Positions 17,051-19,807 of a stretch of 26,087 bases of DNA are shown one piece after another. Both the position numbers and the translations under genes were made by a program. The notes beneath the pieces were generated by a model. It did not search any database. It was not told where the DNA came from and saw nothing but the letters and a program-made list of their open reading frames with translations. Location: assembly GCA_026389675.1 (NCBI GenBank), contig JAPLHJ010000188.1:1-26087 (forward strand). The letters run 5' to 3'. The DNA is from Chloroflexota bacterium (GTDB lineage: Bacteria > Chloroflexota > Dehalococcoidia > GIF9 > UBA5629). Every line of letters begins with the position of its first letter. Position 1 is the stretch's first letter.

Positions 17051-17811
17051 ATGAGCGAAAGCTGGCACGATTATAAAATACTCGACCACCCCGCGATATT
17101 GAATTTGATCTTCTATCCGCGCGCCGACGACTATGAACCGGTTGACACGGAGCGGTCCACGGGCTTTATGGTGCCCGTAGGCGGCGGCATACATATCTCC
17201 TGCCGCTTCTTCTTCGGAAAAAAAGATAATGTTAATATGCTGTTCTTCCATGGCAACGGTGAGTTGGCCGGGGAATATGAGGATATCGGGCTGGCCTTCA
17301 ATAACAGAGGCATCAATCTGTTTGTGGCTGATTACCGCGGTTACGGCGGCAGCAGCGGGCGGCCGACGGTGAGCAATATGATTAAGGATGCACACCCTGT
17401 TGCGAGCTGGTTCAACCGGTTCCTGGAAGATAAGGGCTATACGGGAAGCTGTTTTATCATGGGGCGCTCGCTGGGCAGCGCTTCGGCCATCTATCTGGCA
17501 GCCGGCCACCCGGCCTGGTACAGGGGAGTGGTAATTGAGAGCGGATTCTGCGATATATCAGACCTGCTGGGCAAGCTGGGGCCGGCGCTGAACCCGCCCG
17601 GGCAGTTAGCCACGGCCTCGCCGGGATTCAGCAGGGTTATGAAAATAACCATGCCGGCGCTGATCATTCATGGCGAATACGACTCAATTGTGCCGCTGAC
17701 CGAGGGTGAAAAAATCTACCGCAACATCGGGTCGGAGGAAAAACCATCTTTGCCGAGGGCGCAGACCTGTATTTGCGTGAGCTGGCCGGTTTCGTAAATA
17801 AATACAGGTAA
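17051..17811 (+). pseudogene. Alpha/beta hydrolase with frameshift/deletion near the C-terminus
   Basis: FFHGNGE, DYRGYG, GRSLG and IIHGEYD are intact. After ...IGSEEK (17743) the native-looking tail TIFAEGADLYLRELAGFVNKYR* continues in the -1 frame (17743-17811). No catalytic His occurs in either frame. Confidence 0.72.
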
Positions 17812-17815
17812 TAAA

Positions 17816-17847
17816 AAAGCCCCCTCGATAGCGGGTTCTGTCGACTC
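17816..17847 (+). repeat. Left 32-bp inverted repeat
   Basis: AAAGCCCCCTCGATAGCGGGTTCTGTCGACTC, 30/32 identical to the reverse complement of 19057-19088. Confidence 0.9.
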
Positions 17848-18126
17848 ATGGTTGTTGCTTCATGGGTCAAGGCTTCGACCCAAATGCTTTTATTTTGGAT
17901 TGGCAGTATTTACAGTTTGTTGGCTCAGCTACAATATAACTCATATTACATACACTCTAATTTCATCACACACACATTTTGCTACGATCAACTGTGGTAT
18001 ACTGGTATTAAGTCGTATAGAGAGGTTGGAATTATGGAAACGAATGTAATTTGTTGTGGCATCGTTAAGCGGTATATTGTCCTTAGTAATCAATATACGG
18101 AATATAGATAGTGGGGGTTAACAAAA

Positions 18127-18546
18127 ATGGAAAACGTGAAAAAAGTATTGGATATTTTAAACCAGGCATTACGGTTGGAATACTCACTAATAATCCATTA
18201 CCCGCGTATTAATATGGCTGTACATGACAATGACATCAAAAGTATGGTTAACACTCTGGGCGTAATGTCTATCAAGCATGCCGATGTAGTTTCCGATGCC
18301 ATTATATCTTTAGGTGGAACTCCAGAATGGTCTTTTGACCCTGCACCAGAAGAAATTGACCTTAAAAATATATTCCATATACAGCTCGGAAAGGAGAAGC
18401 TCGCCCTGCAATTGCACAGTGAAAGCTCAAAACTGATCTCAGATAAGGAACTTAAAACGCAGTTTGAGATATTAGCAAAGCAAGAAGAAGGGCACATCAA
18501 AATTGTTGAAAACATCCTTTCCCGTTTGAACCAGTCGGCTATATGA
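18127..18546 (+). CDS. Ferritin-like (bacterioferritin/rubrerythrin-fold) four-helix protein
   Basis: E18 (ALRLEY), S48-x-x-H51, LGGTP, E90 and E120-x-x-H123 follow ferritin-like spacing; 139 aa. Confidence 0.75.
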   Translation: MENVKKVLDILNQALRLEYSLIIHYPRINMAVHDNDIKSMVNTLGVMSIKHADVVSDAIISLGGTPEWSFDPAPEEIDLKNIFHIQLGKEKLALQLHSESSKLISDKELKTQFEILAKQEEGHIKIVENILSRLNQSAI

Positions 18547-18654
18547 CATCTAAAATGAGATACTTGTTGTCAAGGGATACTCGTTATTTTATCGATACCA
18601 AGGCAATTTTTCAGTTACTTAAATCACCTCAAATTTAATATAGGATGAGAAATA

Positions 18655-18921
18655 ATGGATAGAACTAAGAAATATCTGATGCTTGCAAGGGTATTGGATT
18701 GGATTGGGAATATCTGGTTGATTCTTGCTTGTCTATTTATTCTTATCGGCTATATCGCTATAGTGGTTACGCAAGGATGGGGTAGATTATGGGATACAAT
18801 CAGCCTGTATAATTTTTGGAATTTTGTTGCTGTTGTTGGTACTCTTTTGCCAGGAATATTGCTAAAAATTGTTGCCAAAGGGACTAAAGATAAATACTCA
18901 GTTTCGGATAAGCAAATCTAA
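18655..18921 (+). CDS. Small two-TM hypothetical membrane protein
   Basis: 88 aa with two hydrophobic stretches and basic termini. RBS-like AGGATGAG upstream. Confidence 0.55.
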   Translation: MDRTKKYLMLARVLDWIGNIWLILACLFILIGYIAIVVTQGWGRLWDTISLYNFWNFVAVVGTLLPGILLKIVAKGTKDKYSVSDKQI

Positions 18922-19056
18922 CTTTCTATCGTCACGGCATAATTACGTTAAGTAAATAAGAGCAACCCAATCGTAGAGGTATTTTGTCCCAACCCTTCTA
19001 AGCCATGCACTTAACTCAGACAAGGAAAGCCCCCTCATCTGGAGTTTGCCTAACAA

Positions 19057-19088
19057 GAGTTGACAGAACCCGCTACCGAGGGGGCTTT
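19057..19088 (-). repeat. Right 32-bp inverted repeat
   Basis: Reverse complement AAAGCCCCCTCGGTAGCGGGTTCTGTCAACTC. A further partial copy AAAGCCCCCTC lies at 19026-19036. Confidence 0.9.
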
Positions 19089-19099
19089 GGATATCAGGA

Positions 19100-19807
19100 C
19101 TACTTCTTTTCGGATCTCTCGGGCCTCTCAGGTCTCTCGGCTTTCTCAGGTTTTTCAGCGTTCTCCGCGGCTTCCCCTTCCAGCTTCTCTCCTTCCACGG
19201 CCTCCTCGCCTTCGGCAGCAACTTCAGCCGGAACCTCTTCGACCACCTTGCGGACTTCAGCGACCTTGATAAGCATCTGGTCAGGGTCGGCAAGGATGGT
19301 GATTTTATCGCTGACCTTGAGGTCTTTTACATGAAGTGATTGCTCGGGCAGCGCCAGGCTGGAGATGTCTACCTCGATGCTGTGGGGCAGGTCGTCGGGC
19401 AGGGCTTCAATCTGCAATGCAGTCATGGCATGCAGCAGTGATACGTTTTTGAGCTTCAGCGCCGGCGCGTCGCCGATGAATACCAGCGGCACCTCTGCCT
19501 TGAGCTTCTCGGCCATGTTCACCTGGTAAAAATCCACGTGTGTGGGCTCGCCTGTCATGATGTTGCGCTGCACGCCGCGTATGATCACCATGCTGGGTGA
19601 GGCTGAATCGGACGTTTTAATCGAGATAAGATCAGTGCCGCCCGCCTTTGTCAGTACCTGGGTGAGTTTGCGTACATCTACCTGTACAGGCTGCGATTCG
19701 ATGCCGTGACCATAGATGTTGCAGGGTATCAGTCCGCCCCTGCGCAGGAAACGTACTTTCTTTCCGGTTATTTCCCTCTTTAATACTTCAAGTTCAAGTC
19801 TTTTCAT
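19100..19807 (-). CDS. rplY: 50S ribosomal protein L25 / general stress protein Ctc (long form)
   Basis: GKKVRFLRRGGLIPCNIYG, HVDFYQV, VPLVFIG.APA and IEVDISSL motifs; acidic/charged tail. Confidence 0.93.
   Translation of the reverse strand: MKRLELEVLKREITGKKVRFLRRGGLIPCNIYGHGIESQPVQVDVRKLTQVLTKAGGTDLISIKTSDSASPSMVIIRGVQRNIMTGEPTHVDFYQVNMAEKLKAEVPLVFIGDAPALKLKNVSLLHAMTALQIEALPDDLPHSIEVDISSLALPEQSLHVKDLKVSDKITILADPDQMLIKVAEVRKVVEEVPAEVAAEGEEAVEGEKLEGEAAENAEKPEKAERPERPERSEKK

What the first reader, a model, noticed from the sequence alone, without database searches (positions are those of the whole stretch)
17816..19088. Transposase-less AT-rich cassette bounded by 32-bp inverted repeats, apparently inserted in a terminator
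Seen: 17816-17847 and 19057-19088 are 30/32 inverted repeats enclosing ~1.2 kb at about 35-38% GC (sampled lines), between convergent genes. The outer halves (AAAGCCCCCTCG.TAGCG / CGCTA.CGAGGGGGCTTT, with an A/T-run at 17813-17818) would form a bidirectional terminator if joined. The inner 14 bp (GGTTCTGTCRACTC) resemble the GG(T/C)(T/A)CTGT starts of IS6-family ends as I recall them. The 8-mers flanking the inner ends (CGATAGCG / CGCTACCG) match 6/8 as a direct repeat, so could be a decayed target duplication. A third partial copy at 19026-19036 can restore a hairpin downstream of rplY. Inference: either a non-autonomous cargo cassette targeting terminator hairpins and mobilised in trans, or an invertible segment with 32-bp recombination sites.
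Basis: partly seen in the sequence, partly recalled or inferred. Interest (0 to 1): 0.78.

Follow-up and report, generated by a model that had tools for sequence, protein, structure and literature searches.

The report
Dead IS6 cargo transposon in terminator
The AT-rich cassette is the decayed remnant of a gene-carrying jumping element of the IS6 family that landed exactly in the tip of the terminator hairpin shared by two convergent genes of a Dehalococcoidia bacterium. Its relatives repeatedly hit terminator hairpins in the same way, a habit not described for this family.

Summary
Window 17834-19070 (1237 bp, 38% GC against about 55%) is bounded by IS6-type inverted repeats and an 8-bp target duplication (CGATAGCG / CGCTACCG).

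- **Empty site.** A sister species (G011) carries the uninterrupted hairpin AAAAAAGCCCCCT-CGCTACCG-AGGGGGCTTTT between the same hydrolase and rplY genes.
- **Same site, other cargo.** G014 has the same ends at the same site around 5.5 kb that includes a methylase-nuclease fusion.
- **Transposase.** Related elements with the same ends carry a 359-aa zinc-ribbon IS6-family transposase. The window keeps only about 17 of its first codons (17896-17944, minus strand).
- **Cargo here.** An intact ferritin-like gene captured from a chromosomal locus, and an 88-aa membrane ORF.
- **Target habit.** Across five fully reconstructed insertion sites at three loci, the duplication sits at the hairpin apex (plus L165, read directly).
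- **Third half-hairpin (19026-19036).** It is the ribosome-binding region of a small element gene and refolds a terminator-like hairpin behind rplY.

No transposase, other copy, excision or inversion was found, so this copy looks immobile. An invertible segment is not supported. This scan has noted similar cargo-carrying IS6 elements in Chloroflexota hairpins before (e1-977810). I class it as a new variant of a known kind.

The parts
17813..17825 (.). Left half of the host bidirectional terminator: an A-run plus stem GCCCCCT, directly after the hydrolase stop codon
   Evidence: Sequence. It is continuous with the right half in the empty site of G011.
17826..17833 (.). Left copy of the 8-bp target duplication, CGATAGCG, with two changes from CGCTACCG
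   Evidence: G014 has CGCTACCG here. A co-occurring strain in run X2 also reads C at 17828 and at 17831.
17834..17857 (+). Transposase-side terminal inverted repeat, GGTTCTGTCGACTCATGGTTGTTG
   Evidence: The same 24-nt end lies next to the 3' end of an IS6-family transposase gene in G029, G010 and G012.
17858..17944 (-). Remnant of the transposase gene. A few 3'-terminal codons are fused at about 17893-17896 to roughly the first 17 codons (MSYIVAEPTNCKYCQS...), with a stop soon after.
   Evidence: 17880-17947 is 79% identical to the 5' end of the G029 transposase gene. The alignment shows the junction, which G014 shares.
17863..17891 (+). Terminator-like stem-loop plus T-run inside the element. 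It could stop hydrolase read-through.
   Evidence: Pattern scan. Function is inferred.
17945..18033 (+). Conserved divergent promoter and leader of the element, with an extended -10 (TGGTATACT) and an RBS (GAGAGG)
   Evidence: Conserved with G014 and several metagenome elements. The promoter was read by eye; the consensus scan did not call it.
18034..18111 (+). Remnant of the start of the element's DNA methylase gene: METNV, then unrelated codons and a stop
   Evidence: G014 and G010 have MDTNV / METNT opening an N6_N4 methylase at the same place.
18127..18546 (+). Cargo gene 1: an intact 139-aa ferritin-like four-helix-bundle protein
   Evidence: Weak Pfam Ferritin hit. There are 86 homologues of about 140 aa, many named bacterioferritin or rubrerythrin. 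Window 18058-18533 is 85.7% identical in DNA to a chromosomal HD-ferritin-DegV locus.
18655..18921 (+). Cargo ORF 2: an 88-aa hydrophobic (apparently membrane) protein with no family match
18943..19038 (-). Truncated remnant of the small membrane-protein gene that reads inward from the non-transposase end in related elements (MSKLSAW...)
   Evidence: The homologous 5' ends are in G014, G012, G003, L146 and L165.
19026..19036 (.). Internal half-hairpin AAAGCCCCCTC. On the minus strand it reads GAGGGGGCTTT, the ribosome-binding region of the small ORF. It is complementary to the rplY-side flank.
   Evidence: The rplY 3' RNA folds into a 12-bp stem with the repeat in its loop, -35.2 kcal/mol, z = -4.2.
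19047..19070 (-). Non-transposase-side terminal inverted repeat, GGTTCTGTCAACTCTTGTTAGGCA. Positions 17-24 have decayed relative to the family consensus TGGTTGGTG.
19071..19078 (.). Right copy of the 8-bp target duplication, CGCTACCG
19079..19088 (.). Right half of the host terminator, AGGGGGCTTT, 11 nt before the rplY stop codon

Best explanation
Window 17834-19070 is a decayed, no longer autonomous cargo transposon of the long, zinc-ribbon branch of the IS6 family. It sits in a Dehalococcoidia MAG.

**How it got here.**
- An ancestral element had this order: transposase-side repeat, transposase gene, divergent promoter, methylase and other cargo, a small membrane-protein gene, far-side repeat.
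- It inserted by DDE transposition into the apex of the bidirectional intrinsic terminator shared by the alpha/beta-hydrolase gene and rplY.
- The insertion duplicated the 8 bp that form the loop and the top two stem pairs (CGCTACCG).

**How it decayed.**
- An internal deletion removed nearly the whole transposase gene.
- The methylase-containing cargo was replaced by about 0.9 kb holding a ferritin-like gene, taken from a chromosomal locus, and a small membrane ORF.
- The far-side repeat and one duplication copy picked up mutations.

**What it does now.**
- It behaves as a fixed island. Its intact ferritin-like gene is probably transcribed from the element's old methylase promoter.
- Both host genes keep substitute stops. 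One is a small stem-loop with a T-run just inside the left end. The other is a long hairpin made from the rplY-side half-terminator and the element's own G-rich ribosome-binding region, with the repeat in its loop.

**Shown:** the ends, the duplication, the empty site, homology to transposase-bearing elements, and the cargo identity.
**Inferred:** the order of events, expression, and terminator function.
For: **This locus**
- Inverted repeats and the GC drop.
- An empty-site allele with a perfect hairpin and one copy of CGCTACCG in G011. Its flanks are 92-96% identical to the window.
- G008 and G010 are also empty by sequence. Ten more genus members are empty judging by the spacing of their flank matches.
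- G014 has the same site and ends, with 5.5 kb of different cargo. Its left 232 bp and right 141 bp are 85-86% identical to the window.
- The window and G014 keep the two ends of the transposase gene joined at one shared junction.
- An identical cassette and right junction appear in a run of an independent study.

**The family**
- G029 carries a 5.4-kb element with the same end, a perfect 8-bp duplication, and a 359-aa transposase. That protein scores 136.4 bits on NCBIfam transpos_IS6 (cut-off 125) and matches Pfam DDE_Tnp_IS240 and an N-terminal zinc ribbon.
- The published IS6/IS26 terminal repeat consensus is GGTTCTGTTGCAAA, with an 8-bp duplication (PMC6807381).
- The transposase's best plasmid matches are ISCpe7-type transposases, at about 30% identity.
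- Six complete elements at three loci have 8-bp duplications. Five were reconstructed (window and G014, G029 and G193, G012) and fold with the duplication at the apex of a hairpin of -17 to -28 kcal/mol; L165 was read directly from sequence. A further metagenome contig, L177, adds a seventh.
- The repeat pattern gives 15 hits against 1 control in 202 genomes of the order, plus about 35 true ends in metagenomes.

**Cargo**
- The ferritin-like family and the 85.7% DNA match to a chromosomal locus.
Against: - No transposase-bearing copy with exactly this lineage's ends was found at this site, so autonomy at the time of insertion is inferred.
- IS6-family elements studied so far move only through cointegrates and carry no internal cargo. 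These single-transposase cargo elements may move in a way I cannot specify.
- The assembly is an 82%-complete MAG in 308 contigs, so other copies or a transposase could be unassembled.
- Expression and termination are untested.
- G011, which has the empty site, is at least as close to the window as G014. The island's distribution therefore needs either loss or spread by homologous recombination.
Confidence: 0.88

Rival explanations
1. It is a mobile insertion cassette in the strict sense. The element was already transposase-less when it entered this terminator, and a related transposase elsewhere in the cell moved it in trans.
For: - It has transposon ends, a target duplication and no transposase.
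- Transposase-deleted derivatives arose at least three times in the family, each with a different junction: window and G014, G012:C186 with L133/L154, and L165.
- Related transposases occur in 10 of 16 genomes of the genus.
Against: - The window-type deletion junction was found only at this one site, in the window and G014. It was not found elsewhere in 202 genomes or in the metagenome hits.
- No cognate transposase is in this assembly.
- The far-side repeat is decayed.
Confidence: 0.1
2. It is an invertible segment (a DNA switch) whose 32-35-bp inverted repeats are recombination sites.
For: The long inverted repeats include the flanking half-stems. The left duplication copy CGATAGCG is one step from the reverse complement of the right copy, which past inversion or gene conversion between the arms could produce.
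Against: - There is no invertase or recombinase gene in or beside the cassette.
- The orientation is the same in G014 and in contigs from four runs of three studies, and no inversion joint was seen.
- Transposition explains the repeats fully.
Confidence: 0.02
3. The family's element-borne half-stem is not a passive ribosome-binding site. It takes part in choosing or rebuilding the target, either by pairing with the hairpin as a guide or by being templated from the flank. This would explain why it matches the local terminator.
For: - At the non-transposase end, 33 nt inboard of the tip, 10-14 nt are complementary to the adjacent host flank at both C5-stem sites. GAGGGGGCTTT faces AAAGCCCCCTC at the rplY site, and AGGGGGAT faces ATCCCCCT at the G029/G193 site.
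- Scores against the element's own flank exceed nearly all cross-site scores. No such signal appears at transposase ends.
- The matched stem is unique in the genome.
- The same terminator was hit independently and in both orientations (L156 against L165 and the window).
Against: - The G-rich motif is intrinsic to the element lineage. It is also present at non-matching sites (G012:C21, L146).
- Ends at GGCGGG-type sites mostly lack any match.
- A pre-existing GGAGGGGG ribosome-binding site, plus survival of harmless insertions and a few substitutions, would be enough.
- No DDE transposase is known to use such a guide.
Confidence: 0.12

Closest known systems
Long zinc-finger IS6-family elements: ISCpe7 / ISCbo1 / ISTps1 (clade VII of Harmer and Hall 2019, PMC6807381) and ISDsp3 of Dehalococcoides sp. 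BAV1
   Same: - The DDE transposase is about 340-360 aa with an N-terminal zinc ribbon.
- The ends start GGTTCTG.
- The target duplication is 8 bp.
- ISDsp3 comes from the same bacterial class. The 2021 review names it as the only IS6 member with a passenger gene (PMC7986276).
   Different: - Those elements are 1.2-1.5 kb. The elements here carry 2-5 kb of variable cargo between the transposase and the far end.
- Transposase identity to ISCpe7 is only about 30%.
- The reviews I read describe no hairpin-apex target preference for the IS6 family.
- The window copy has lost its transposase.
Mobile insertion cassettes (MICs, e.g. MIC231 of Bacillus cereus). The comparison rests on my own knowledge and on scan note e1-4368903.
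   Same: Insertion-sequence-type inverted repeats and a target duplication bracket non-transposase genes.
   Different: MIC231 is moved in trans by an IS231 transposase of the IS4 family. Here trans-mobilisation is not shown, and the copy retains fragments of its own transposase gene, so it is better described as a decayed autonomous element.
IS1272 / TnSha1 of staphylococci (IS1182 family; PMC4923244, PMC5678879)
   Same: A single insertion sequence with adjacent cargo forms a unit that targets terminator hairpins with little primary-sequence preference. The same hairpin is hit repeatedly and in both orientations.
   Different: TnSha1 inserts into the stem, deletes part of the hairpin and makes no target duplication. 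Here the insertion is at the apex, with a clean 8-bp duplication and both half-stems preserved. The transposase family also differs.
IS26-type pseudo-compound transposons and translocatable units (PMC7986276)
   Same: The same transposase superfamily and duplication length, with cargo carried next to an IS6-type transposase.
   Different: IS26 structures have two full IS copies in direct orientation and move through cointegrates. These elements have one transposase and simple inverted ends, like a unit transposon.

Membership tests
IS6 / IS26 family of insertion sequences | Encodes an IS6-type DDE transposase | tested here: inconclusive
   The window holds only a remnant, about 17 N-terminal codons and a few C-terminal codons, that is 79% identical in DNA to the G029 gene. 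The intact 359-aa protein of related elements with the same ends scores 136.4 bits on NF033587 (cut-off 125) and matches PF13610.
IS6 / IS26 family of insertion sequences | Terminal inverted repeats starting GG and close to GGTTCTGTTGCAAA | tested here: met
   The ends read GGTTCTGTCGACTC and GGTTCTGTCAACTC. The first 8 nt are identical to the published consensus and positions 9-14 differ.
IS6 / IS26 family of insertion sequences | 8-bp direct target duplication | tested here: met
   The window has 6/8 and G014 7/8. G029, G012, L177 and L165 each have 8/8. The empty site holds a single copy.
IS6 / IS26 family of insertion sequences | Simple structure of about 0.8 kb (1.2-1.7 kb in the long clades) with the transposase as the only gene | tested here: not met
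   Complete relatives are 3.3-5.5 kb with several cargo genes. The window copy is 1.24 kb with cargo and no transposase.
IS6 / IS26 family of insertion sequences | Movement by cointegrate formation | not testable with these tools
   This needs a transposition assay. The single-copy inverted-end structure does not tell.
Mobile insertion cassette (MIC) | IS-type repeats and a target duplication around non-transposase genes, with no transposase | tested here: met
Mobile insertion cassette (MIC) | Moved in trans by a cognate transposase, shown by copies at several sites | tested here: not met
   There is no second copy in the genome. The assembly has no cognate transposase. The window-type deletion junction is seen at one site only. 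Power is limited by the incomplete MAG.
Invertible DNA segment (Hin/Gin or tyrosine-invertase switches) | An adjacent or enclosed site-specific recombinase, and both orientations present in the population | tested here: not met
   There is no recombinase ORF or domain. Only one orientation appears in G014 and in contigs of four runs. Contigs can miss rare forms.
Bidirectional intrinsic terminator (the target site) | A GC-rich hairpin flanked by an A-run and a T-run between convergent genes | tested here: met
   The G011 empty site reads AAAAAAGCCCCCTCGCTACCGAGGGGGCTTTT and folds at -25.5 kcal/mol, against -8.2 +/- 2.8 for shuffles. Termination itself was not measured.

The most novel reading that the evidence does not exclude
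These Dehalococcoidia elements may be a distinct class of IS6-derived unit transposons, defined by two habits.

- Their DDE transposase recognises the apex of GC-rich terminator hairpins by structure rather than by sequence.
- Their far end carries a half-stem that pairs with the host half-terminator. The insertion therefore rebuilds a terminator around the transposon end and insulates both host and element.

In the strongest form, this half-stem helps select the target or is templated from it.
Probability: 0.2. Interest if true: 0.8.

Novelty: new variant of a known kind. Interest (0 to 1): 0.5.

Why it matters
- **For this genome.** The finding is a fossil: an immobile island that brought a ferritin-like gene beside rplY.
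- **For mobile-element biology.** The family behind it is more interesting. IS6 elements are textbook cointegrate-formers without internal cargo, and only ISDsp3 is listed with a passenger gene. Here a whole set of single-transposase elements carries 2-5 kb of swappable cargo. Examples are a methylase-nuclease fusion, a dCTP-deaminase-like protein, a DUF433/DUF5615 pair and a ClpP-like protease.
- **Target habit.** These elements insert with an exact 8-bp duplication at the tip of terminator hairpins and re-use the same few hairpins across genera. That places new genes between convergent genes at little cost to the host. It may also explain how small-genome Dehalococcoidia acquire accessory and defence genes.
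- **Testable question.** It offers a tractable case of structure-directed targeting by a DDE transposase.

Tried and rejected
- **Other copies in this genome.** I searched for the ends or the whole cassette and found none beyond the two arms.
- **A trans-acting transposase in this genome.** Only a 24%-identical integrase-core ORF on contig C67 turned up (E = 8e-5), not a family member.
- **The genome-contig scan.** It returned only the MAGs already reached with the genome search, plus distant archaeal proteins.
- **Reads.** Only assembled contigs were available. They showed no empty-site, excision or inversion joint. The joints at 17996/18948 and 18986/19058 come from the co-occurring G014-like allele, not from excision. 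This is weak evidence of absence.
- **Defence function of the window's cargo.** PADLOC gave no hit for either ORF. NCBIfam gave none either.
- **Promoter scan.** It found no plus-strand sigma-70 consensus in the cassette. The extended -10 was read by eye.
- **G029:C153.** I first thought it shared the window's transposase deletion, but the alignment shows an intact-type 3' end.
- **L165.** I first counted its hydrolase-side end as a cargo end carrying a foreign half-stem. It is the transposase-side end with the gene fully deleted.
- **Origin of the internal half-stem.** I tried to derive it from cointegrate, inversion, flank-capture or template-switch schemes. None reproduced the structure without extra assumptions, so I leave them out.
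- **A recombinase-type integrative island, or chance similarity of two terminator halves.** I rejected both because of the 8-bp duplication, the empty site and the transposase-bearing relatives.
Full report
**Observation.** The repeats are real. The arms are 17816-17850 and 19054-19088, 35 nt and 91% complementary, 1203 nt apart. GC falls from 0.53-0.60 in the flanks to 0.34-0.40 inside. The flanking genes converge. On the left is an alpha/beta hydrolase (Hydrolase_4, 4e-21). On the right is rplY (Ribosomal_L25p plus TL5_C). The assembly is a Dehalococcoidia MAG of 1.8 Mb in 308 contigs, 82% complete. The best DNA holder is a freshwater metagenome.

**Anatomy.** Reading the sequence against relatives splits each arm into three parts:
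- a host half-stem, AAAAAAGCCCCCT on the left and AGGGGGCTTT on the right;
- an 8-mer, CGATAGCG at 17826-17833 and CGCTACCG at 19071-19078;
- the element end proper, GGTTCTGTCGACTCATGGTTGTTG at 17834-17857 and the reverse complement of GGTTCTGTCAACTCTTGTTAGGCA at 19047-19070.

**Empty site.** G011, a species of the same genus, has flanks 92-96% identical to the window. There the hydrolase stop is followed directly by AAAAAAGCCCCCTCGCTACCGAGGGGGCTTTT and then the rplY stop. This is one perfect hairpin with one copy of CGCTACCG, and it folds at -25.5 kcal/mol against -8.2 +/- 2.8 for shuffles.
- G008 and G010 also have uninterrupted hairpins, with other loops.
- Ten further genus members have hydrolase and rplY matches spaced as expected for an empty site. 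I inferred this from spacing and did not read the sequences.
- The cassette is therefore an insertion at the hairpin apex with an 8-bp target duplication. The copies now match 6/8 in the window.

**Same site, other cargo.** G014 carries the same ends at the same place, with duplication CGCTACCG / CGCTACCA, around 5476 bp of 39% GC. Only the left 232 bp and right 141 bp are alike, at 85-86%. Its cargo is:
- a 561-aa N6_N4 methylase fused to an Mrr-type nuclease domain (PADLOC MTase_II, 9e-68);
- a HATPase_c_4 protein;
- two unknown proteins.

G003 also has an island at this site but lacks the far-side repeat. There the element's internal AGCCCCCTC is fused to GCTACCGAGGGGGC, giving a perfect, chimeric terminator.

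**What kind of element.** In G029, a different genus of the same family, a 5405-bp element of 39% GC sits in another hairpin, AAAATCCCCCTTT-CGATTCGA-AAGGGGGATTTT. Its duplication is a perfect 8 bp. One end is GGTTCTGTCAACTCTTGGTTGTTG. Reading toward that end is a 359-aa ORF with three family matches:
- NCBIfam transpos_IS6, 136.4 bits (cut-off 125);
- Pfam DDE_Tnp_IS240, 2.6e-17;
- an IS1/IS1595-type N-terminal zinc ribbon.

Its best plasmid matches are ISCpe7-family transposases at about 30% identity. The published IS6/IS26 end consensus is GGTTCTGTTGCAAA with an 8-bp duplication. The long zinc-finger clade (ISCpe7, ISCbo1, ISTps1) and ISDsp3 of Dehalococcoides have not been studied experimentally (PMC6807381). 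ISDsp3 is the only IS6 member listed with a passenger gene (PMC7986276). Relatives of this transposase occur in 54 of 202 genomes of the order.

**The window copy is a decayed derivative.**
- Window 17880-17947 is 79% identical to the first codons of the G029 transposase gene on the minus strand (MSYIVAEPTNCKYCQS...). The 40 nt next to the repeat align with the gene's 3' end.
- The two pieces meet at about 17893-17896, and G014 has the same junction.
- Downstream lies a conserved divergent leader, then ATGGAAACGAATGT (18034). This is the start of the methylase gene in G014 and G010 (MDTNV / METNT) but runs into a stop after 25 codons here.
- At the other end, 18943-19038 (minus strand) is a truncated copy of a small membrane-protein gene. 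That gene reads inward from the far end in G014, G012, G003, L146 and L165.
- The far-side repeat has lost the family's TGGTTGGTG motif.
- The genome holds no related transposase and no other copy.
- Other family members lost the transposase independently, at different junctions: G012:C186 with L133/L154, and L165.

**Cargo.** The unique 0.9 kb (18048-18947) holds two ORFs.
- The first is an intact 139-aa ferritin-like protein. It has weak Pfam Ferritin hits and 86 homologues of about 140 aa, many named bacterioferritin or rubrerythrin.
- Window 18058-18533 is 85.7% identical in DNA to a metagenome contig where the gene lies between HD-domain and DegV genes. It was therefore captured from an ordinary chromosomal locus.
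- The second is an 88-aa hydrophobic (apparently membrane) ORF with no family match.

**Target habit of the family.** The pattern GGTTCTGYCRACNNNTGGTTG, with up to one mismatch, gives 15 hits against 1 control in 202 genomes. A stricter pattern gives 61 metagenome loci, of which about 35 show the outside-to-inside GC drop.
- Seven complete elements all have 8-bp duplications. They are the window and G014; L165; G029 and G193; and G012 and L177.
- When one duplication copy and the element are removed, the flanks fold into hairpins of -17 to -28 kcal/mol with the duplication at the apex.
- Single ends almost always abut an A-run, a GC-rich half-stem and 7-11 nt.
- A few hairpins are used again and again with different cargo. 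Examples are the rplY terminator, AAAAGGCGGGTTACAAATTTG, and GGGCGGGTTTAAAAA.
- The rplY/hydrolase terminator is also occupied in more distant lineages. In L165 the hydrolase is 68% identical in protein and the duplication is TTGTCCGG, 8/8. L159 and G096 are occupied too, and L156 is occupied in the opposite orientation. These are independent hits.

Terminator-hairpin targeting has a precedent in IS1272/TnSha1, but that element makes stem deletions and no duplication (PMC4923244).

**The third half-hairpin.** AAAGCCCCCTC at 19026-19036 reads GAGGGGGCTTT on the minus strand. This is the ribosome-binding region of the small ORF, 33-34 nt inboard of the repeat tip.
- The rplY 3' RNA folds into a 12-bp stem with the repeat nested in the loop, at -35.2 kcal/mol and z = -4.2. 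G014 gives -43.3 and z = -4.8.
- AAGCCCCCTC occurs nowhere else in the assembly.
- At the two C5-stem sites, complementarity to the element's own flank (scores 10-14) exceeds almost all cross-site pairings. Transposase-side ends show nothing.
- However, the motif GGAGGGGGYTT is intrinsic to the element lineage. It also occurs at non-matching sites (G012:C21, L146), and ends at GGCGGG-type sites mostly lack a match.

My preferred reading has three parts: a pre-existing G-rich ribosome-binding site, survival of insertions that rebuild a terminator, and a few later substitutions. A guiding or templated role is not excluded; I put it at about 0.12.

**Population data.** A contig from an independent study covers 17910-19154 with no difference. 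The G014-like allele and a third cargo allele co-occur in the same runs. No empty, excised or inverted form was seen, but only contigs were available.

**Verdict.** The cassette is a fossil cargo transposon of the long IS6 branch, sitting in a terminator apex. The invertible-segment reading does not hold. This scan noted similar elements before on other Chloroflexota DNA (e1-977810, e1-751314). I did not rely on those notes, but my results agree with them.

Noticed in passing
window 17743-17746 (hydrolase gene 17051-17811): The window lacks 34 bp that contigs of three other runs and the relatives G011 and G014 carry here (AGGCTGGTTATTGTGCCGGATGCCGACCACAATACT). The loss shifts the frame and removes the ..VIVPDADHNT.. 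stretch, which probably holds the catalytic histidine. In this MAG the hydrolase is either a pseudogene or mis-assembled.
   Followed up: partly
L019/L095 (G003:C14, about 29584-29623): G003 has an island at the same site, but the far-side repeat (about 35 nt) is precisely absent. The element's ribosome-binding region is fused to the loop and the host half-stem, which recreates a perfect terminator. This looks like an immobilised, 'healed' island end. Its left end runs off the contig.
   Followed up: partly
L165 1-3020; L156; L159; L096 (G096:C160): The hydrolase/rplY terminator is occupied by family elements in more distant lineages too. L165 has a perfect duplication, TTGTCCGG. L156 is in the opposite orientation. 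These are independent insertions into the same hairpin.
   Followed up: partly
L014 3195-8246; L046 752-4403; L093 5681-7794; L094 4455-8425; L177 1253-4883: Cargo of related elements includes:
- a type II methylase fused to an Mrr nuclease domain;
- a HATPase_c_4 protein;
- a MerR-DUF433 protein next to a DUF5615 protein;
- an SDH-type ClpP-like protease;
- a 700-aa protein with a dCTP-deaminase-like C-terminus;
- an XRE regulator, a Bro-N protein and a DUF4145 protein.

Many of these look like defence or addiction genes.
   Followed up: partly
G191:C1 2025182-2029053 (L054): A closed genome of a sister genus has two identical copies of a 57%-identical transposase in inverted orientation 1.8 kb apart, plus a third copy at 893867. 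This may be a compound structure.
   Followed up: no
window 17910-17952 and run X2/X5 loose ends: Contigs in two runs follow the window to 17952 and then diverge (TTCTATTATTATACAGTACATTTTTTACGA...). The divergent sequence resembles the leader of metagenome element L148. It is either a third cargo allele at this site or another element sharing this leader.
   Followed up: no
window 17842-17856; all family ends: The terminal repeat contains its own small palindrome, CCAAC-N5-GTTGG (TCGAC...GTTG in the window). The conserved part of the far end extends to about 33 nt (GGTTCTGCCAACTSATGGTTGGTGGACTCYMAC).
   Followed up: no
window 19110 (rplY 3' end): Co-occurring strains in runs X2 and X7 lack 9 nt in the repetitive acidic/basic tail of L25 (..PERPERSEKK). 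This is a length polymorphism of the tail.
   Followed up: no
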